Shown: one piece after another, positions 21,463 to 40,248 of the stretch
How positions within the stretch are numbered: the first letter of the stretch is position 1
Layout of the letters: each line of letters starts with the position of its first letter
IMG/VR virus record: IMGVR_UViG_3300048591_000242
Span: 128,001 to 192,000 of that record
DNA length: 64,000 nt
Source of the DNA: a virus
Taxonomy: Duplodnaviria; Caudoviricetes
Strand: one strand, 5' to 3'
The notes under the pieces: generated by a model
The model's input: the letters and a program-made list of their open reading frames with translations, nothing else
What the model was told of the DNA's origin: nothing
Database searches by the model: none
Position numbers and translations under genes: made by a program

Positions 21463-22242
21463 ATGACTACATTTAAAGCTATACCCAAGAAAAACGTAAC
21501 GGATGACCCTAAGTTAGCTCTGTTTGGGGAACCTTGGAGAGAAGGGGATTACAGTAAGAAACCTAGTATGAAGTTGAGAGTAATCAACTCTACGGGTAAT
21601 CCAAAATCGGAAGTAAAACAAAGCACAGTCGGTGTTTGGATTACCGTATATTTAAATCATCCAGATGAAAATGATGATGCAAAGAAAATTGACATCAAAA
21701 TGGATGCGGTCATATCGTCTACATTTATAGCTGCTATAGAGCGAGCTATAAAGAACCGAGAAGCCACTATGTTGGGTATAGATAACATGGGGTATACCTT
21801 TGTAGGGGGCAACAAGTCAGATAAGCCCACTAGCCTGGGTAAGGTATTTGTGGGTAGAAACGGTGAGGGAGTATTGTGTCTGGTGGTAGATGCACCCAAT
21901 AGACCAAGGGCTTTATTTCCGTTTACACCTACCTTTTGGTGGGCCCTTATTAATAAGAACGGGGATAAAATATCTGCCGTAGAGGCCTCTGAGTTGGTAG
22001 CAGAAGGCTGGGTAGCCATAGTGCGTCCTTTACTAGCTATGGCTGTAAAGGAAACCTACGACGACAAAGAAGCTGCACACAGAAAAGCTGAATTGGAGGC
22101 AAATCGTAACTCACAAGGCAATAGCGGTGGTTACAGCAAGCCGTATGAGAAGAAGAGCTACGATGACAAAAAGAGCTATGAAAAGAAACCGTATAACAAC
22201 CCAAAGCCAACCACCACAGATGTCTTTGATAGCATTCATTAA
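21463..22242 (+). CDS. chmC: ChmC-like nucleus-associated nucleic-acid-binding protein (phiKZ gp67-like position)
   Basis: Synteny upstream of the gp68/PicA homologs; about 260 aa with a low-complexity K/Y/S/N tail. Confidence 0.6.
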   Translation: MTTFKAIPKKNVTDDPKLALFGEPWREGDYSKKPSMKLRVINSTGNPKSEVKQSTVGVWITVYLNHPDENDDAKKIDIKMDAVISSTFIAAIERAIKNREATMLGIDNMGYTFVGGNKSDKPTSLGKVFVGRNGEGVLCLVVDAPNRPRALFPFTPTFWWALINKNGDKISAVEASELVAEGWVAIVRPLLAMAVKETYDDKEAAHRKAELEANRNSQGNSGGYSKPYEKKSYDDKKSYEKKPYNNPKPTTTDVFDSIH

Positions 22243-22250
22243 TTAACTAT

Positions 22251-22289
22251 TTTAGGTAAAGGGCTTAGGCTCTTTACCTAAAGTATGCC
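22251..22289 (+). terminator. hairpin plus TATGCC motif
   Basis: tttaggtaaagggc-ttag-gctctttacctaaa, then tatgcc. Confidence 0.7.
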
Positions 22290-22303
22290 TGGAGTACTGT
22301 AAA

Positions 22304-22852
22304 ATGAATAGTGAAAAAACAGTTAACATGCACACGGATATAGATGTGGCTAGATACTTATTAGCTACAGAAAACGCCAAACATATGTTTCTGGCATTAA
22401 GGGAAGCCATGTCGCCCTATGGCCAAGTAGATATGACCGTACATTGTGGCATATATACCAACAATGACAATCTGCTAGCAGCCATGTACAACTTATGTAT
22501 ACCTCTGGATTGCGTAAGAAACAATGAGGGCATAGGCAGTATAGTGTTGACGGTAGATAATAGGATATGCCCTACCTACAGATACGATCGTGAGAACAGA
22601 GTACTGGTGTTCGATATGGCCCATAACGGAAAACATGTTAAGGTACAAATACCGCCTATTCTAATTATGGGTATGTGCGTGCGGGATTATCCTAGCACTA
22701 GAGTTAGTGTATCTAACTATGGGATAAATGAGTTTATCTCTGTAGCCGGAGATATGGCTATTACTAAATGCCCTGAGACCATATACAAAAGAACGTTAAT
22801 AAAGGGACAGAAGAATTTACCAGATAACGTGGTTTCTATATTCAACAAATAA
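22304..22852 (+). CDS. sspB: SspB-like ClpXP adaptor, paralog 1
   Basis: GSIVLTV...RVLVFDMAHNGKHVKVQIPPILIMGMCVRD aligns by eye to SspB GQIVLNI...EVRFNARFGGIPRQVSVPLAAVLAIYARE; tail NVVSIFNK. Confidence 0.6.
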   Translation: MNSEKTVNMHTDIDVARYLLATENAKHMFLALREAMSPYGQVDMTVHCGIYTNNDNLLAAMYNLCIPLDCVRNNEGIGSIVLTVDNRICPTYRYDRENRVLVFDMAHNGKHVKVQIPPILIMGMCVRDYPSTRVSVSNYGINEFISVAGDMAITKCPETIYKRTLIKGQKNLPDNVVSIFNK

Positions 22853-22864
22853 TGAGGTTTTACT

Positions 22865-23422
22865 GTGACTGATAATCTACCTTACCTTGAGTGTAACACT
22901 GAGCGATACCTAGCCAGCACTATAGCGGCTAAAGATTTATTTATGCATATGCGAAGCATTATGTCCAAGTATGGTACAGTACATGCCGCTATAAACTGTG
23001 GTACCTTTGTGAGTCCAACTGAGTTTATACCGGCGATGACCAATCTTAAAGTACCACAACCATACATAGAAAATCGAAATGGTGCCGGTGTCATGATTTT
23101 GTCTGTATCAGAAGGCTCGTGCATTCATTACGACTATGATCTGTCTAAACGAGTTTTTGTTTTTAATTTGAGTTTCGGAGGTGTAGCCACTGTAGTACAT
23201 ATACCGCCTATTTTAATAGTGGGTCTGTATGTTAAAGACCACCCAGCTACTGTATCTACCATATCTACATACTCACGAGATGAGTTTATTGGGGTAGCCA
23301 ACGGTATGGCAGTTGGTATATGTCCAGATGAGGTCTATAGAAATTTGTTTCTACCGGTACATGAACCTGTAGGTAATGTAGTTAGTATATTCGATAAAAG
23401 CAAGGGTAAGCCGTCTAAGTAG
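22865..23422 (+). CDS. sspB: SspB-like ClpXP adaptor, paralog 2
   Basis: GVMILSV...FVFNLSFGGVATVVHIPPILIVGLYVKD; tail GNVVSIFDK; clear paralog of the previous gene. Confidence 0.65.
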   Translation: MTDNLPYLECNTERYLASTIAAKDLFMHMRSIMSKYGTVHAAINCGTFVSPTEFIPAMTNLKVPQPYIENRNGAGVMILSVSEGSCIHYDYDLSKRVFVFNLSFGGVATVVHIPPILIVGLYVKDHPATVSTISTYSRDEFIGVANGMAVGICPDEVYRNLFLPVHEPVGNVVSIFDKSKGKPSK

Positions 23423-23475: not shown

Positions 23476-23502
23476 TATATTACCTACATGTAAACCAACC
23501 AC
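23476..23502 (+). promoter_or_regulatory. TATATTAC-N12-CAACCAC element
   Basis: Exact bipartite match. Confidence 0.7.
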
Positions 23503-23516
23503 GCTAGGATGTTATC

Positions 23517-24953
23517 ATGGAAATAAAAATGAGTGAAATTGAAAAGAATATTCTTTTCGTCACCCACAGAGGGGAGAGTATTCGGTGCCCTACCTCCGGA
23601 TACTTTAAGAAACTATCAACCACAGGCAATAGCTTTGACCCATTAAACGAATACTGGGCCACACTTAGCACGCTGCATCAAGACGCCATATATGCGCTAT
23701 ACGCTGAAGCCAATATGGTTATCGAGGAAACCAATAGTTTTGACAGAACTAAAGCCGATTTGACTGATATCGTAGCTAGACTGTTTGATTTAATAGACTA
23801 CGGTCATCTAACTGATTGGGTACTTAGATATGGTAAGATTTCTTACAACAAAGATATCGCTACGTCCTATAGTGGTGTCTATGAAGAAAGATTAACTTAT
23901 CTAAAAGACGACTATGATGGTCTGGTTGTGCTATCCATGTTCTTTAAGATGCTTACACCTATATGGGGTTTATTCTCTGATACTTCACCTAATTTGGATA
24001 TGGGGTTTAAGGAGATAAATGCATTAGAGATGATGGATACGTCTAAGGTACATTCATTACCGGCCATGGCCAGATTAAAGGACTATTGTGAGGCATTGGT
24101 AAATAAAAACAAGAAGGGGATGACTCCTGCTATACTGGGTAGACATATTGGTACCAGTGAGGTACCTAAGTACTTTTTGGCGTTAGCCGTCGTGCGCAGG
24201 TTAGCGATAGGTGACATTAGAGACAACAAAGACACGTTGATAAAACTGGTTTATAAGTTTCTAAAGTCAAATATAGAAAACCTTAGCAAGGGTGTCAGGG
24301 ATAAGCGTGGGTACAGTAGTGACCCAGATGACCCAGAGTCAGTAGCAGAAAGATATCGTATTTCTCAGAGGGTACCAGATAACGATATTACTACTGCCGA
24401 GTCTTATGTAAAAGACATAGCTAGGTTTGTAACCGATGTATCGCCTACGGGTAATGTAGATAAAGCTATCGCTTATGTAAACGCTATTAAAAATAGCGCT
24501 AGCTTTAGCATAGCTGGATTTCACATACAGTTCATGGGACTAGTTTGTGATAGGGTTATAAGTCCTAGGACATGCAGATTAATGTCAAGAAATAGTTATT
24601 TAACTGTTTTGGGAGTTACCGCTGGTTGGTTATCTGATAACGGGTATCAACTACTGGCCAACATTATAATGTCGCCTAGATATGAAAGAGACCCTGAAGC
24701 CATGCAAATGCATTCGGTATCTGGTTTTGCTTTTACTGGATTAATTAAGGAAAACCGTGAAGCCTTGGATGCTATTTATAGCCACCAACAGCTAGACTTA
24801 CAGGGTAAATCTAAGGGTAACCCTGGAGTAATGATGATTGATATGATCGTGGAAGAAATAAATTCTTACGATTGGGATGAAACGTTAGTCGTACCACAGA
24901 ACATAAGGAACGACATAGCTGCACTGTTATTATACCGGGAGAACGCGCTGTGA
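23517..24953 (+). CDS. nvRNAP specificity (sigma-like) subunit, phiKZ gp68-like
   Basis: 478 aa; synteny between ChmC-like and PicA-like genes; N.YW..L, Y...DY..LV.LS, and E.YRI motifs. Confidence 0.75.
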   Translation: MEIKMSEIEKNILFVTHRGESIRCPTSGYFKKLSTTGNSFDPLNEYWATLSTLHQDAIYALYAEANMVIEETNSFDRTKADLTDIVARLFDLIDYGHLTDWVLRYGKISYNKDIATSYSGVYEERLTYLKDDYDGLVVLSMFFKMLTPIWGLFSDTSPNLDMGFKEINALEMMDTSKVHSLPAMARLKDYCEALVNKNKKGMTPAILGRHIGTSEVPKYFLALAVVRRLAIGDIRDNKDTLIKLVYKFLKSNIENLSKGVRDKRGYSSDPDDPESVAERYRISQRVPDNDITTAESYVKDIARFVTDVSPTGNVDKAIAYVNAIKNSASFSIAGFHIQFMGLVCDRVISPRTCRLMSRNSYLTVLGVTAGWLSDNGYQLLANIIMSPRYERDPEAMQMHSVSGFAFTGLIKENREALDAIYSHQQLDLQGKSKGNPGVMMIDMIVEEINSYDWDETLVVPQNIRNDIAALLLYRENAL

Positions 24954-26446
24954 GCTTAACAAATACCATAGAGTTAGTAAAGGCCTCATTCATAGGTGTA
25001 CCCTGTGAGGCAAACATGCACTATCGCCCATACAAGGCGACATTAGATACCGCTACATTAAATGAGGTAGCAGAAACTACCAGAGGTGGCACTAATATAG
25101 GGTCCAATGCATTTAGCGGTGTAGCTGGCAGAATCTTAGCGCCATCGAGTCAGTCTATGGGGGGTCTAATGATTCCATACGGCTGGGATCAGCGACGCTA
25201 CAGTGTTGTACTGGAGTTTGATGTGATAACGCCATTTGCCGTCGAGCGCTCTATTATAACTGGATATACCGGTTATGATGAGATCACTGCAACTGGCCAT
25301 TTAGATCCAAATATGCCCATATTTGTAAACAGTCACACCATAGCTACCGCTACTGCATTTAAGGATCAAATGGGTATTCGTCGTAACGCCTATAGAAGTA
25401 ATGGGGCCAAGCAAGTACTTAGTGGTGTACAGTACATTAACAATACTGACGGTAGTGTTAATACGGCTAGTACACCAATGCGTCCCTCAGATGCTTTGTT
25501 ATACAAACAAAGACAAGAGATGTGTCTGCTAAATAACGTTGTAGACGCTCGCTCTATGTTGGGAGATGGATATTTGTCATCTAACCGAGATAACGTTATT
25601 GGCAGTAAGTATTTATCTAAGGTCTGTATGGGCTATAGACAGGCGGCCTTATCCAATAGCGAGTATGCTGATACCGATGCGGTTATTTATGGAGATGCTG
25701 CTGAGGTATACGGTGTAGCTGAAAGCAACATAAACAAATCTTTGTTATTCCAAAGACTGAAGGCTCTTACTAGTTACGGACATAACAACTCCATAACTGT
25801 AGGTGAATTGGCTAGCGTATGGCCACAGATTCATGACGATACCACTAAAACGGTTATTCACATGACTCCTGGGCTACCAGAGACTACAGCTAACTGTAAC
25901 AACCACTGGGGTGGTGCTATAAAGGAAACTGCATTGGCATATATGCTTTGTCAATCAGTACCTGCATTGATGAGTACTTTACTATTTAGTGAGTTCTCTT
26001 TTGCTATGGATAACAAAACTATGGACGGCAGCGTACGTATAGCTCTATTAGGCATGCCTAAGTTCATTGTACCGATTCCAGATGACTTACATCGAATCCA
26101 GGCTATGGAGAGTAATCTAGTATCTGACGTAGCCGCACAAATTACTTCTAGTGGTGTAACTGATTTTGATGTAGTTATGACCTGTAGGATAATCGGTAGC
26201 AATCAAGTTACCATTTCTGTCAACGGAGGGGAAAGAATACCCTATAGCGCTCCGGCTTACTGTGATGCCATATACACACCTGTAATGGGTGAGAGCGCCG
26301 ATTCATTAGTTAATTTAGGTAATGACATCGGTTATATGCTACATGGTATATTTGGAGACAGCCACAATAGGTCCAATATACAGCAGCCTGCGGTAGCGTG
26401 GGATGACATTAACGATACACCCGACATATACCTAGGGGGAATGTAG
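24950..26446 (+). CDS. picA: PicA/Imp1-like nuclear import factor (phiKZ gp69-like)
   Basis: 498 aa, coupled to the gp68 homolog; RPY, GW...R..F.LE and GYT motifs. Confidence 0.65.
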   Translation: MSLTNTIELVKASFIGVPCEANMHYRPYKATLDTATLNEVAETTRGGTNIGSNAFSGVAGRILAPSSQSMGGLMIPYGWDQRRYSVVLEFDVITPFAVERSIITGYTGYDEITATGHLDPNMPIFVNSHTIATATAFKDQMGIRRNAYRSNGAKQVLSGVQYINNTDGSVNTASTPMRPSDALLYKQRQEMCLLNNVVDARSMLGDGYLSSNRDNVIGSKYLSKVCMGYRQAALSNSEYADTDAVIYGDAAEVYGVAESNINKSLLFQRLKALTSYGHNNSITVGELASVWPQIHDDTTKTVIHMTPGLPETTANCNNHWGGAIKETALAYMLCQSVPALMSTLLFSEFSFAMDNKTMDGSVRIALLGMPKFIVPIPDDLHRIQAMESNLVSDVAAQITSSGVTDFDVVMTCRIIGSNQVTISVNGGERIPYSAPAYCDAIYTPVMGESADSLVNLGNDIGYMLHGIFGDSHNRSNIQQPAVAWDDINDTPDIYLGGM

Positions 26447-27819
26447 TGAAACCTATAGTAAAGTTCTATAAACAATTTTTACAAGACTTAGGCCTTACCA
26501 TTGGTGACGATGATGAGGTGATGTTGGTGGTAAAGGGACATGACCCTATACACATTAAAGTGAACGTTAAACGGGGTAAAGTATTTAAGCAGTTGCCTTT
26601 GTACTTACCCACTGACAGACATTTAAACGTGGATAATGGGGATAAGGTCTATTTTCATCCAGCAGGGGAGAGTTGTTCTCGCGGGCAAAGTGAGGTATTT
26701 AATGCTACACTTAAAATTGCTACTGAACGTATGTTTGCAGCAGTTACCTGTACAGTAGATAGTTTGCTTAAGCTGTGTGCCGATAGGGAGGCGCATAGTA
26801 ACTCTAATGTTACTGTAGAGGCAGTGGAGCTATTAAGAGACGTAGGGGATGTATCTAAGCCTACAGTAGAGCAGTGGAAATCTTTATTTAAGAAGACTAC
26901 TGGGTATACTGGGGAAAGACCGATTATGTCGGTAGTAGTAGGTAGAAATAAAACCATAGATAAGGTTAGTTATTCTAGAATCTGTGGTGTGCGTTTACCT
27001 ATATTAGACAGTGCTGACATGTATGACATAAAGCTAACTAAGACTGCCCAGATGGCAATACGTAAGTCATTTGATTTGGTTTTAGGTAGTGAGCCTTGTG
27101 TTAACGGTAGTAACTCTCCTACAGCACCATACTTCATGGCATTGGCCAAAACCTATCATCAAGTAATGACCAGCGTTATGTCTGTGGTTCGTATTATAGA
27201 GCCATACATGCATGGTGAAGTTAAGTTTGATGGCCGGTGGCTAAAATCTCTGGATAAACTACATGACTGGTATAGAAACGACTTCTATATTCAGTTAGAA
27301 GGTAATTTGGGTTTAGGTAAGACCGTAGAGGAAGAAGACAAACCTGCAAGTAATACACAGGCTCCCCAACGTATCCTTACTGAAGCTAGACAGGACTCTA
27401 GTGAATCCAGTGTGCGTCCAGTACAAATGCCTACACAGCAGCACGTGGAGCCTATACAGGTACCGGTAAAAGAGCCTGTGCCAGATGACGGCATACCGAG
27501 ATTCAAACCACCCACTGGCGCTACGTTGCCTCCTCCATTACCTGCATACCAGCAATATGGTTACGGGCAACAGCCACAAAACAACGATACTTACTTTGAT
27601 AGCCGTACCGGTACATACCGACCCAGGGGCAGCAACAATGTGGCGCCTAATCAGCAGCCGCAGTACCAGCAACCCCAGCAATATCCACCTGGGTACGCTC
27701 CACCACAACCACAGTACGTACCACCACCGACCTATCAACAACCACAACAGCCTATGGGTTATCCACCACAAGTGCAGCCTATAGCGTATGACCAATACGG
27801 GAGACCAATATACAGGTAA
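26446..27819 (+). CDS. conserved core protein (phiKZ gp70-like) with Q/P/Y-rich disordered tail
   Basis: FHPAGES..RGQSEV and APYF.AL motifs; low-complexity C-terminal ~150 aa. Confidence 0.7.
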   Translation: MKPIVKFYKQFLQDLGLTIGDDDEVMLVVKGHDPIHIKVNVKRGKVFKQLPLYLPTDRHLNVDNGDKVYFHPAGESCSRGQSEVFNATLKIATERMFAAVTCTVDSLLKLCADREAHSNSNVTVEAVELLRDVGDVSKPTVEQWKSLFKKTTGYTGERPIMSVVVGRNKTIDKVSYSRICGVRLPILDSADMYDIKLTKTAQMAIRKSFDLVLGSEPCVNGSNSPTAPYFMALAKTYHQVMTSVMSVVRIIEPYMHGEVKFDGRWLKSLDKLHDWYRNDFYIQLEGNLGLGKTVEEEDKPASNTQAPQRILTEARQDSSESSVRPVQMPTQQHVEPIQVPVKEPVPDDGIPRFKPPTGATLPPPLPAYQQYGYGQQPQNNDTYFDSRTGTYRPRGSNNVAPNQQPQYQQPQQYPPGYAPPQPQYVPPPTYQQPQQPMGYPPQVQPIAYDQYGRPIYR

Positions 27820-39262: not shown

Positions 39263-39751
39263 ATGAAATATATTCCGATTTTTGATGATACTACGGTAGG
39301 TTCTGTATTTGCTGAGCTTTTGGCCTGTCAGAGTGAAGGGGAGACTGAGGCTACTTTAATCTTCAGTGCCCCTGATATGGGTATGTATATAGGTTTGGCC
39401 TTTAGAGACCTTTTATATACCTTTAAGGACACTCTTGCGCTTACGGCGGTAGCCCACATACCCCCTAACCTAAATGAGCTTGTAGCGATTACAGGGTTGC
39501 CTGTAGAGCAGAGAAAGATTACTAAGTCAAATCTAGTAATCTTTGTAAAAGAAACCTGGTTTATCGAAGGCTCTGTTTCTGAGCAGTACATTACTCATTC
39601 AGAAAAGCTTTTAGTAGAAAATAAAATTGTAAAACTAATAAGCGAGTCTTCTAAGCTTACCGAAGAAAACATAAACAACCTAATTAAAGACGGTAAGGTT
39701 GTTCATGCTAAGGATGCTATAGAGGCAGGGTTATTTGGGAGTACTGTATAA
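39263..39751 (+). CDS. degenerate ClpP-like protein lacking the catalytic triad
   Basis: LIFSAP..GMYIGLAFRDLL and ISESSKLTEENI...HAKDAIEAGLFG align with the ClpP scaffold; no Ser/His/Asp motifs. Confidence 0.6.
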   Translation: MKYIPIFDDTTVGSVFAELLACQSEGETEATLIFSAPDMGMYIGLAFRDLLYTFKDTLALTAVAHIPPNLNELVAITGLPVEQRKITKSNLVIFVKETWFIEGSVSEQYITHSEKLLVENKIVKLISESSKLTEENINNLIKDGKVVHAKDAIEAGLFGSTV

Positions 39752-40248
39752 TGGCTACTAAAAGAATACTTTACATTACCGATGACATAGCTTTAGAAAA
39801 CGGCTATGAGGTAATTATAGGTTTGCGTAAGCTAGAGGCAGAAGACCCTATCTCCCCTATAGTTTTGTTTATAAATTCATACGGTGGCAGAGTAGACGTA
39901 TGTCTGGCTATAGTAGACGTTATGAACGATCTGTCGTGTCCTGTATATACCGTGGGATACGGTCAGGTTATGTCAGCAGGTGCCTTTATTTTAGCAAACG
40001 GCTCTAAAGGTAATAGAAGCTTAGCCCCTAATGCCAGAGTACTACTACATCACCCTAACGGCAATAACGTACTGGGAGATACAGACACCGGCATGGCTGT
40101 ATTCTTAGCCTATCGTGATATGGTAGATGTATTAATAGCAGAAGCTTCTGAAAGAAGTATAGAAGAGGTATCTTCTAAGATGTCTACTGACTATTATTTA
40201 TCTGCTACAGAAGCTGTAGAATTTGGTATAGTAGATACTGTTTTATAG
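39751..40248 (+). CDS. clpP: ClpP protease proteolytic subunit
   Basis: INSYGG, VMSAGAF (Ser), LLHHP (His), TDYYLSATEAVEFGIVD (Asp). Confidence 0.93.
   Translation: MATKRILYITDDIALENGYEVIIGLRKLEAEDPISPIVLFINSYGGRVDVCLAIVDVMNDLSCPVYTVGYGQVMSAGAFILANGSKGNRSLAPNARVLLHHPNGNNVLGDTDTGMAVFLAYRDMVDVLIAEASERSIEEVSSKMSTDYYLSATEAVEFGIVDTVL

What the first reader, a model, noticed from the sequence alone, without database searches (positions are those of the whole stretch)
22304..23422. Tandem SspB-like adaptors inserted into the conserved ChmC-gp68-PicA block
Seen: two diverged paralogs with an SspB-like core and a shared tail (NVVSIF). Known: SspB tethers substrates to ClpX through a short C-terminal peptide, and alphaproteobacterial SspB tails resemble xVVSL. 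Inference: the phage redirects host ClpXP to chosen substrates such as defence proteins or regulators, with two specificities or as a heterodimer.
Basis: partly seen in the sequence, partly recalled or inferred. Interest (0 to 1): 0.72.

Follow-up and report, generated by a model that had tools for sequence, protein, structure and literature searches.

The report
Duplicated orphan SspB-like genes in jumbo phage
An uncultured nucleus-forming giant phage carries two neighbouring, highly diverged copies of the bacterial SspB protein, which normally hands proteins to the ClpXP protease; similar genes are already known in related phages, but this version is a rare sequence family with an unusual docking tail, and its function is untested.

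Summary
ORF-A (22304-22852, 182 aa) and ORF-B (22865-23422, 185 aa) are intact tandem paralogs (38% identity, E 1e-43). Both end in NVVSIF and lie between the phiKZ gp67 (ChmC)-like and gp68-like genes. Both fold as SspB. In an exhaustive search of 48,161 PDB chains the top four hits are all SspB (Z 10.2, 10.1, 6.9, 6.5; next 3.6). By sequence they stay below Pfam's SspB threshold. HMMER over 1.84 billion cluster representatives found only one relative, a single-copy gene at the same junction in another metagenomic chimallivirus. That gene keeps an NVVSL tail. Eleven other relatives, including the closest (gp68 72% identical), have nothing at this junction, so this is a patchy accessory cassette. 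However, the phage tails match only the first half of that motif, and ORF-A and ORF-B do not stand out under the full-motif test. ClpX binding is a reasonable inference but is not shown. SspB-like genes with host-type tails are already annotated in other chimalliviruses (phiKZ, RAY), and this scan has noted them before on other DNA. Verdict: a new variant of a known kind, of moderate interest.

The parts
21463..22242 (+). Upstream flank: phiKZ gp67 (ChmC)-like gene, 259 aa
   Evidence: BLASTP to PHIKZ067, E 3e-11; phrog_3284, E 7.5e-28; 38% identical to the 240-aa gene in the same position of L007
22248..22285 (+). 17-bp RNA hairpin between the ChmC-like stop and ORF-A; possible terminator, attenuator or stability element (function inferred)
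   Evidence: MFE -23 kcal/mol, z -4.0, 0 of 200 shuffles as stable; L007 has a hairpin in the equivalent spot
22291..22294 (+). GGAG ribosome-binding site of ORF-A, 9 nt before the ATG
   Evidence: read from the sequence
22304..22852 (+). ORF-A, 182 aa, SspB-fold protein (paralog 1)
   Evidence: ORF. AF2 model has core pLDDT 75-86. VIA-align against 48,161 chains: 8et3_Z Z 10.2 (104 of 105 residues, rmsd 2.8), 1ou9_A Z 10.1, 2nys_B 6.9, 2qaz_A 6.5, next 3.6. phrog_8945 'SspB-like', E 0.007
22826..22843 (+). ORF-A C-terminal motif NVVSIF (residues 175-180), candidate docking peptide
   Evidence: 100% identical to ORF-B after a spacer with 0% identity; NVVS is invariant in all three family members
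22854..22857 (+). GAGG ribosome-binding site of ORF-B, 7 nt before the GTG
   Evidence: read from the sequence
22865..23422 (+). ORF-B, 185 aa, SspB-fold protein (paralog 2)
   Evidence: ORF. AF2 model pLDDT 57.6, pTM 0.63. Foldseek: top 13 PDB hits are all SspB, prob 1.0. VIA-align Z 8.1-8.8 to SspB, next unrelated 2.9. Pfam SspB E 0.057, below threshold. The only PDB sequence hit is 1yfn SspB, E 1.5
23375..23392 (+). ORF-B C-terminal motif NVVSIF (residues 171-176), followed by the basic tail DKSKGKPSK
23476..23483 (+). TATATTAC octamer 34 nt before the gp68-like start; possibly a promoter element, which would place the pair outside the gp68 transcription unit (weak)
   Evidence: 10 copies in the window against 9.0 expected, so the octamer alone is not significant
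23517..24953 (+). Downstream flank: phiKZ gp68-like gene, 478 aa
   Evidence: tblastn onto PHIKZ068, E 4e-20, and 167 chimallivirus records; phrog_3209, E 5e-78
24950..26446 (+). phiKZ gp69 (PicA/Imp1)-like gene, 498 aa
   Evidence: BLASTP to PHIKZ069, E 2e-39

Best explanation
ORF-A and ORF-B are a lineage-specific tandem duplication of a fast-evolving accessory gene for a remote SspB-family protein. Each has three parts. First, a long N-terminal helix plus a beta-rich peptide-binding domain of the SspB type. Second, a conserved hydrophobic C-terminal extension that stands in place of SspB's long acidic linker. Third, an unconserved spacer of about 8 residues followed by the invariant peptide NVVS[IL]. 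My preferred mechanism is that the proteins act in the host cytoplasm like SspB: the core binds a peptide on chosen host or phage proteins, the C-terminal peptide docks on the N-terminal zinc-binding domain of host ClpX, and the cargo is handed to ClpXP for degradation. What is shown: gene integrity, paralogy, SspB fold, conservation of the tail, and accessory (patchy) distribution. What is inferred: ClpX docking, delivery as opposed to blocking, the cargo, and any difference or pairing between the two paralogs.
For: SspB fold in both paralogs, from models built without any SspB sequence in the alignment. SspB chains are the only strong matches and cover the whole SspB domain. The one sequence segment that aligns is the SspB signature hairpin, F..FGG......IP....Y. 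The protein atlas gives SspB-annotated, phage-rich clusters as nearest neighbours, as a lead only. Tail anatomy fits a docking peptide: A/B identity is 36-41% in helix, core and extension, 0% in the 8-residue spacer and 100% in the tail. NVVS is kept in P0004, which is only 24-28% identical overall, while flanking core genes are 45-55% identical. VVS[LI] is the start of the real alphaproteobacterial SspB tail (25/25) and is expected by chance in 0.0019 of tails. P0004 also has a hydrophobic residue and two arginines where the alpha motif has F-R-K (2/412 null tails score as high). In both known SspB branches the C-terminal peptide is the ClpX tether (established knowledge; PMC5422525 and PMC8138137 state that SspB binds the ClpX N-domain). 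Other chimalliviruses carry SspB-like genes whose tails copy the E. coli-type motif: phiKZ ...KLTVIK and RAY gp39 ...LTVVK. RAY gp39 is cytoplasmic (PMC10299810).
Against: There is no experimental or computational evidence of ClpX binding. The proteins fail Pfam's SspB threshold (13.9 bits against 27; none for ORF-A and P0004). A three-member profile finds nothing in the PDB by sequence. With the full 11-column alpha tail matrix, ORF-A and ORF-B are not outliers (18/412 and 42/412 null tails score as high), and they score at background with the E. coli-type matrix. The strongly conserved DAFRKK half of the alpha motif is missing. The segment before the tail is hydrophobic (34-42%, against 8-16% in real SspB linkers) and conserved, leaving a tether of only about 8 residues, unlike any characterised SspB. 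The host is unknown. The nearest cultured relatives infect Vibrio, a gammaproteobacterium whose SspB would be expected to use the LRVVK-type tail. The family is very rare and absent from the closest relative, so it is dispensable.
Confidence: 0.4

Rival explanations
1. SspB-fold peptide binder with no ClpX link. The fold is reused as a small chaperone or scaffold. The conserved NVVS[IL] peptide either binds another partner (a phage protein, for example the phage's own ClpP-like pair or a nucleus- or import-associated factor) or forms a strand that packs on the conserved C-terminal extension or on the partner subunit of a dimer.
For: Only half of the alpha ClpX-binding motif is present, and ORF-A and ORF-B are not significant with the full motif. 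The pre-tail segment is conserved and hydrophobic, unlike a flexible SspB linker, and the spacer is only about 8 residues. The ORF-B model places a short strand on residues 172-174, at low confidence. A shared fold does not prove a shared function. The family falls outside Pfam SspB.
Against: In both characterised SspB branches the C-terminal peptide is the ClpX tether, and the phage motif starts exactly like one of them. The pattern of an unconserved spacer followed by an invariant terminal peptide is typical of a docking motif. The gene position gives no support for a link to ChmC, gp68 or PicA, because 11 relatives lack the insertion. ClpP homologs occur in many phages that lack this family.
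Confidence: 0.33
2. ClpX N-domain decoy or anti-adaptor. The proteins dock on ClpX through the tail, but their main effect is to displace host adaptors and N-domain-dependent substrates. This would protect phage proteins or derange host regulation instead of delivering cargo.
For: All the tail evidence of the main explanation applies. The very short tether and the folded extension may be poorly suited to handing a cargo to the ClpX pore (inference). From my own knowledge, phage modulators that act by competing with host protease adaptors are known, for example SPO1 gp53 on ClpCP.
Against: A decoy needs only the peptide, yet the whole SspB peptide-binding domain is kept at 36% A/B identity in two intact copies and in P0004. 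That argues that something is bound by the core.
Confidence: 0.17
3. Dispensable moron in decay: a recently duplicated selfish or neutral cassette with no current function.
For: Patchy distribution and absence from the closest relative. Extreme rarity: three proteins found by HMMER over 1.84 billion cluster representatives. It evolves faster than its neighbours.
Against: Both ORFs are intact and have ribosome-binding sites. The fold is preserved in both. Specific motifs (CG, IPPIL, NVVS) are invariant at 24-38% overall identity.
Confidence: 0.05

Closest known systems
Bacterial SspB, E. coli / H. influenzae type (PDB 1OU9, 1OX8, 1YFN, 8ET3; Pfam PF04386)
   Same: Same fold over essentially the whole substrate-binding domain (Z 8.1-10.2, 99-118 residues aligned, rmsd 2.8-3.9). 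Same signature hairpin (F..FGG...IP...Y). Same overall plan of domain plus a short conserved C-terminal peptide.
   Different: 12-19% identity and below the Pfam threshold. The tail is not LRVVK-like (background score). There is no long acidic or PGSAT-rich linker; instead there is a conserved hydrophobic extension of about 30 residues and a spacer of about 8 residues. No evidence for ssrA or RseA recognition.
Alphaproteobacterial SspB (SspB-alpha; Caulobacter 2QAS/2QAZ, Agrobacterium 2NYS)
   Same: Same fold (Z 4.4-6.9). The tail begins with the same xVVS[LI] (25/25 sampled alpha-type SspBs read (E)VVSLDAFRKK). P0004 also mimics the hydrophobic-Arg-Arg part.
   Different: The core is structurally nearer the E. 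coli type than the alpha type. The DAFRKK half of the tail is absent in ORF-A and ORF-B, so the full-motif score is not significant. The linker differs as above.
SspB-like genes of other chimalliviruses and jumbo phages (phiKZ gp232-type ORF, Erwinia phage RAY gp39, phrog_8945; also Pf16 gp18)
   Same: Phage-borne SspB-fold proteins with a conserved C-terminal peptide, in nucleus-forming jumbo phages. RAY gp39 is cytoplasmic (PMC10299810). None has a tested function.
   Different: No detectable sequence similarity by tblastn, and only E 0.002-0.007 to phrog_8945. Those genes carry E. coli-type tails (KLTVIK, LTVVK), are single-copy and lie in accessory regions, not at the gp67/gp68 junction. 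phiKZ's version has a very long linker (302 aa).

Membership tests
SspB (Pfam PF04386) | Sequence match above the curated Pfam gathering score (27 bits) | tested here: not met
   ORF-B 13.9 bits, E 0.057; ORF-A and P0004 no hit. Own-genome scan: 12 bits. RAY gp39 passes at 29.3 bits.
SspB (structural family) | SspB substrate-binding-domain fold (N-terminal helix plus beta-rich domain) | tested here: met
   ORF-A: Z 10.2 and 10.1 to 8et3_Z and 1ou9_A, 104-118 residues; next unrelated chain Z 3.6 among 48,161 chains. ORF-B: Z 8.1-8.8; next 2.9. Foldseek prob 1.0.
SspB (structural family) | Conserved signature hairpin (F-x-x-x-F-G-G ... [IV]-P ... Y) | tested here: met
   The same segment is aligned by Pfam (profile positions 66-98), phmmer to 1yfn, BLASTP to RAY gp39 (E 8e-5) and hhalign to both SspB core types (E 0.039 and 0.27). 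Each score is weak on its own.
SspB (functional family) | Homodimer through the N-terminal helix | tested here: inconclusive
   A long N-terminal helix is present in both models (residues 12-36 and 6-39). The oligomeric state was not modelled.
SspB (functional family) | Long flexible linker between domain and tail | tested here: not met
   The 38 residues before the tail are 34-42% hydrophobic and as conserved as the core (40% A/B). Real SspBs have 8-16% hydrophobic, acidic or PGSAT-rich linkers. Only about 8 unconserved residues separate the extension from the tail.
SspB (functional family) | C-terminal ClpX-binding peptide, E. coli type (L-R-V-V-K) | tested here: not met
   PSSM scores -0.9 to -1.3, with 62-74 of 412 null tails as high. 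E. coli SspB scores 17.0 and RAY gp39 12.4, with 0/412.
SspB (functional family) | C-terminal ClpX-binding peptide, alphaproteobacterial type (x-V-V-S-L-D-A-F-R-K-K) | tested here: inconclusive
   The first half, xVVS[LI], is identical and invariant in the family. The full-motif PSSM gives P0004 2/412, ORF-A 18/412 and ORF-B 42/412.
SspB (functional family) | Physical binding of the tail to the ClpX N-terminal domain and stimulation of ClpXP degradation | not testable with these tools
   Needs a binding and degradation assay.
Chimallivirus/jumbo-phage SspB-like proteins (phrog_8945; phiKZ gp232-type, RAY gp39) | Sequence membership in phrog_8945 and a host-type L-[RT]-V-[VI]-K tail | tested here: not met
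   phrog_8945 gives only E 0.0018-0.0071. No tblastn match to any of 50,697 phage records. The tail is of a different type.

The most novel reading that the evidence does not exclude
The NVVS[IL] tail is a working ClpX-docking peptide of the alphaproteobacterial type. That would mark this marine phage lineage as the first nucleus-forming (chimalli-) phages of an alphaproteobacterial host. Alternatively, it would show that a half-motif is enough on gammaproteobacterial ClpX. In either case the duplicated paralogs would form a heterodimeric or dual-specificity adaptor that feeds host defence or regulatory proteins to ClpXP, possibly to a hybrid protease containing the phage's own ClpP pair.
Probability: 0.1. 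Interest if true: 0.72.

Novelty: new variant of a known kind. Interest (0 to 1): 0.45.

Why it matters
SspB-like genes recur in jumbo phages, but none has a demonstrated function. This pair adds a third, very divergent branch of the SspB fold. Its architecture is different (folded extension, very short tether), its tail resembles the alphaproteobacterial ClpX-binding peptide and not the E. coli-type tail seen in phiKZ and RAY, and it is the only tandem duplication seen here. If the tail does dock on ClpX, three things would follow. Phages would be tuning adaptor tails to their hosts' ClpX. Tail type could serve as a host-prediction marker for uncultured phages. The pair would be a compact natural example of how adaptor specificity diversifies after duplication. 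If the tail does not dock on ClpX, this is a case of the SspB fold reused for another job. In either case it is an accessory, dispensable gene and not part of the nucleus core machinery.

Tried and rejected
1. tblastn of ORF-A and ORF-B against 50,697 phage records: no match. Megablast of the block: no match.
2. Word-index search of 5.8 billion proteins: only the window's own protein.
3. HMMER over 1.84 billion representatives: one true relative (P0004). P0005 and P0006 are simple-repeat proteins and were rejected as spurious.
4. Three-member profile against PDB sequences: nothing at E <= 10.
5. Pattern scans for more family members in IMG/VR and in JGI metagenomes: none confirmed. The gp68-like single-protein scan found none. 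The alignment scan gave two distant loci, and the one I inspected (L151) has no insertion.
6. Complex prediction with two copies of Caulobacter ClpX residues 1-62 plus ORF-B residues 140-185: no verdict (score 0.20, mark 0.32). This counts neither for nor against binding.
7. The look-up of sequencing runs: none was listed and no RNA holder was listed.
8. Whole-record searches of the Logan and ENA relatives for SspB-like genes or ClpP elsewhere: records not held. Co-occurrence therefore could not be tested there.
9. The phage ClpP pair (39263-40248) as the adaptors' partner: considered and not used as evidence. ClpP homologs occur in 81 phage records, including Vibrio chimalliviruses that lack this family, and one is annotated as a head-maturation protease.
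10. Primary papers on alpha SspB and on ClpX N-domain peptide recognition (Lessner 2007, Chien 2007, Chowdhury 2010) are not held. I confirmed only the existence and title of Chowdhury 2010. My recollection that each species' SspB can deliver to the other's ClpXP, and that the Caulobacter determinant spans about 10 residues, is from memory.
11. TATATTAC as a promoter mark: not enriched in the window (10 found against 9.0 expected).
12. Host assignment: not resolved. The genomes sampled for SspB tails carry no taxon labels, so I anchored the two groups to E. coli and to the Agrobacterium and Caulobacter PDB chains instead.

Full report
**What is there**

The window is bases 128001-192000 of a 202-kb IMG/VR virus record with direct terminal repeats. 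ORF-A (22304-22852, 182 aa, ATG) and ORF-B (22865-23422, 185 aa, GTG) lie on the + strand, 12 nt apart. They are clear paralogs: 38% identity over 173 residues, E 1e-43. Both have a Shine-Dalgarno-like site at the right distance. The public gene call of ORF-B is a truncated 128-aa form. The full reading is supported by the ribosome-binding site and by homology to ORF-A from residue 7 onward. G+C content (39-40%) matches the flanks.

**Context**

The neighbours are the conserved chimallivirus block:
- an SbcD-like gp65 homolog and a gp66-like gene (phrog_3229);
- a gp67/ChmC-like gene (E 3e-11 to PHIKZ067);
- then the pair;
- then gp68-like, gp69/PicA-like (E 2e-39) and gp70-like genes.

In phiKZ, Vibrio phages pir03 and Yong MS32, and IMG/VR locus L151, gp67-like is followed directly by gp68-like. 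A search with the gp68-like protein returned a graded series of metagenomic relatives. I inspected the junction in eight of them.
- L007 (gp68 55% identical) has one 188-aa homolog, P0004, at exactly this site.
- L153 (72%, the closest relative), L154, L155, L156, L157, L158 and L159 have nothing there.

So the cassette is present in 2 of 9 members of this clade, single-copy in one and duplicated in the window. ORF-A and ORF-B are closer to each other (38%) than to P0004 (24-28%), so the duplication is lineage-specific. Flanking core genes are 45-55% identical between the two phages and ChmC is 38%. The SspB-like gene therefore evolves faster than its neighbours. This is the behaviour of an accessory gene sitting in a permissive intergenic site. 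It gives no support for a functional tie to ChmC, gp68 or PicA. A strong hairpin (-23 kcal/mol, z -4.0) separates the ChmC-like gene from ORF-A.

**Is it SspB?**

By sequence, only marginally.
- Pfam SspB gives E 0.057 for ORF-B, which is below threshold, and nothing for ORF-A or P0004.
- phrog_8945 'SspB-like' gives E 0.002-0.007.
- The only PDB chain with any sequence signal is E. coli SspB 1yfn, E 1.5.
- A three-member profile finds nothing in the PDB.
- All weak alignments fall on the same segment, the SspB signature hairpin.

By structure, clearly yes. An AF2 model of ORF-B was built from the two paralogs alone (pLDDT 57.6, pTM 0.63). Its top 13 Foldseek hits are all SspB chains (prob 1.0). 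VIA-align gives Z 8.1-8.8 to SspB, with rmsd 3.0-3.9 Å over 99-116 residues, and the best unrelated chain scores 2.9. The ORF-A model (core pLDDT 75-86) was compared with all 48,161 PDB representatives without Foldseek pre-filtering. The top four are SspB of E. coli (Z 10.2, 104 of 105 residues), H. influenzae (10.1), Agrobacterium (6.9) and Caulobacter (6.5). The next chain scores 3.6. No SspB sequence was in either alignment, so these results are independent of the hypothesis. The protein atlas agrees, as a lead only. I conclude that these are remote SspB-family homologs: members by fold but not by the Pfam criterion.

**The family is almost an orphan**

HMMER over 1.84 billion cluster representatives found only the two window proteins and P0004; two further hits are repeat artefacts. 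tblastn over 50,697 phage records, the word-index search and pattern scans of IMG/VR and JGI metagenomes added nothing.

**The tail**

I sampled PF04386 in 301 genomes of the phylum that contains E. coli; 278 had a match. I then extracted 60 SspB genes.
- 25 end in (E)VVSLDAFRKK.
- 26 end in [HN]LR[VL][VI]K.
- Nine extractions failed.

Core type and tail type co-vary 51/51. The first group is anchored to Alphaproteobacteria: L098 matches Agrobacterium 2nys at E 8e-65, that chain itself ends VVSLDAFRKK, and L098 also matches Caulobacter SspB. The second group is anchored to E. coli SspB, which ends ALRVVK.

The phage tails read NVVSIFNK (ORF-A), NVVSIFDKSKGKPSK (ORF-B) and NVVSLTDMRRIK... (P0004). 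NVVS is invariant. VVS[LI] occurs in the last 25 residues of no other ORF of this phage (2 of 414; expected 0.0019 per tail).

Region by region, A/B identity is as follows:

| Region | A/B identity |
|---|---|
| N-terminal helix | 41% |
| Beta core | 36% |
| Residues 133-162 | 40% |
| 8-residue spacer | 0% |
| Tail | 100% |

This is the signature of a short docking motif.

The stricter test is sobering. With an 11-column matrix built from real alpha tails, and with this phage's own ORF tails as the null, P0004 is marginal (2/412). ORF-A (18/412) and ORF-B (42/412) are not outliers, because the conserved DAFRKK half is missing. All three score at background with the E. coli-type matrix, whereas RAY gp39 (12.4) and E. 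coli SspB (17.0) beat all 412 null tails. The resemblance is therefore real but covers only the first half of the alpha motif.

**Differences from SspB**

Real SspBs have a long linker that is acidic or rich in Pro, Gly, Ser, Ala and Thr, and only 8-16% hydrophobic. Here the 38 residues before the tail are 34-42% hydrophobic and as conserved as the core. They probably form a folded extension, even though AF2 is unsure of that region. Only about 8 residues tether the tail.

**What is already known**

SspB-like genes are already annotated in jumbo phages. [quoted passage not shown] Pf16 gp18 is another example (PMC5587285). BFVD fold hits include Noxifer, 201phi2-1, PhiPA3, PA7, Rebecca, phiA8-29 and VAP7. 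I verified that phiKZ has a 302-aa SspB-like ORF ending KLTVIKGGKK and that RAY gp39 ends LTVVK. Both are E. coli-type tails, and both phages infect gammaproteobacteria. Earlier notes of this scan reported the same for phiKZ-type phages on other DNA. None of these proteins has a tested function. Against this background the window's pair is a new variant: a different sequence family, locus, copy number, linker architecture and tail type.

**Mechanism**

I favour SspB-like action, at 0.40. The core binds a peptide on chosen proteins, the tail docks on the ClpX N-domain, and the cargo goes to ClpXP in the cytoplasm. The rivals are:
- an SspB-fold binder with no ClpX link (0.33);
- a ClpX N-domain decoy (0.17);
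- a decaying moron (0.05).

The phage's own ClpP (PF00574, E 3e-39) and its degenerate paralog at 39263-40248 are suggestive. I do not count them as evidence, because ClpP homologs occur in 81 phage records, including Vibrio chimalliviruses that lack this family.

The host is unknown. The alpha-like tail points to an alphaproteobacterium, while the nearest cultured relatives infect Vibrio and unchecked earlier notes mention Pseudomonas-like accessory genes. From memory, Chowdhury et al. 2010 (title confirmed) reported that E. coli and Caulobacter SspB each work with the other species' ClpXP. If that is right, tail type need not identify the host.

**Verdict**

This is a new variant of a known kind, of moderate interest (0.45).

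Noticed in passing
window 39263-40248: Phage ClpP (39751-40248; PF00574, E 3e-39) is preceded by an overlapping, degenerate ClpP paralog (39263-39751; E 0.002). No ClpX-like gene was seen. ClpP homologs occur in 81 phage records, including Vibrio chimalliviruses.
   Followed up: partly
window 22248-22285: Strong 17-bp hairpin directly after the ChmC-like stop codon (-23 kcal/mol, z -4.0). L007 has a hairpin at the equivalent place. It may be a terminator, attenuator or RNA-stability element marking the edge of the cassette.
   Followed up: partly
window 26446-27819: The phiKZ gp70-like protein (457 aa) ends in a low-complexity tail of roughly 130 residues, rich in Gln, Pro and Tyr. It looks like a disordered, possibly condensate-forming region.
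   Followed up: no
window 22865-23422: The public gene call for ORF-B is truncated to 128 aa (it starts at Met58). The GAGG-7nt-GTG start at 22865 and homology to ORF-A from residue 7 support the 185-aa form, which includes the N-terminal helix of the fold.
   Followed up: yes
L155:1506-2265 and L156:514-756: Relatives carry other small accessory genes inserted elsewhere in the same conserved block: 119-aa and 121-aa genes between the gp65-like and gp66-like genes in L155, and an 80-aa YhfG-like gene in L156. Intergenic sites of this block therefore act as general insertion spots.
   Followed up: no
window 23476-23483: TATATTAC lies 34 nt upstream of the gp68-like start.
   Followed up: partly
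L161:1471-2379 (phiKZ record): The phiKZ SspB-like ORF (302 aa) has a very long Asn/Ser/Asp-rich linker and ends KLTVIKGGKK. It scores just below the Pfam SspB threshold (24.9 bits).
   Followed up: partly
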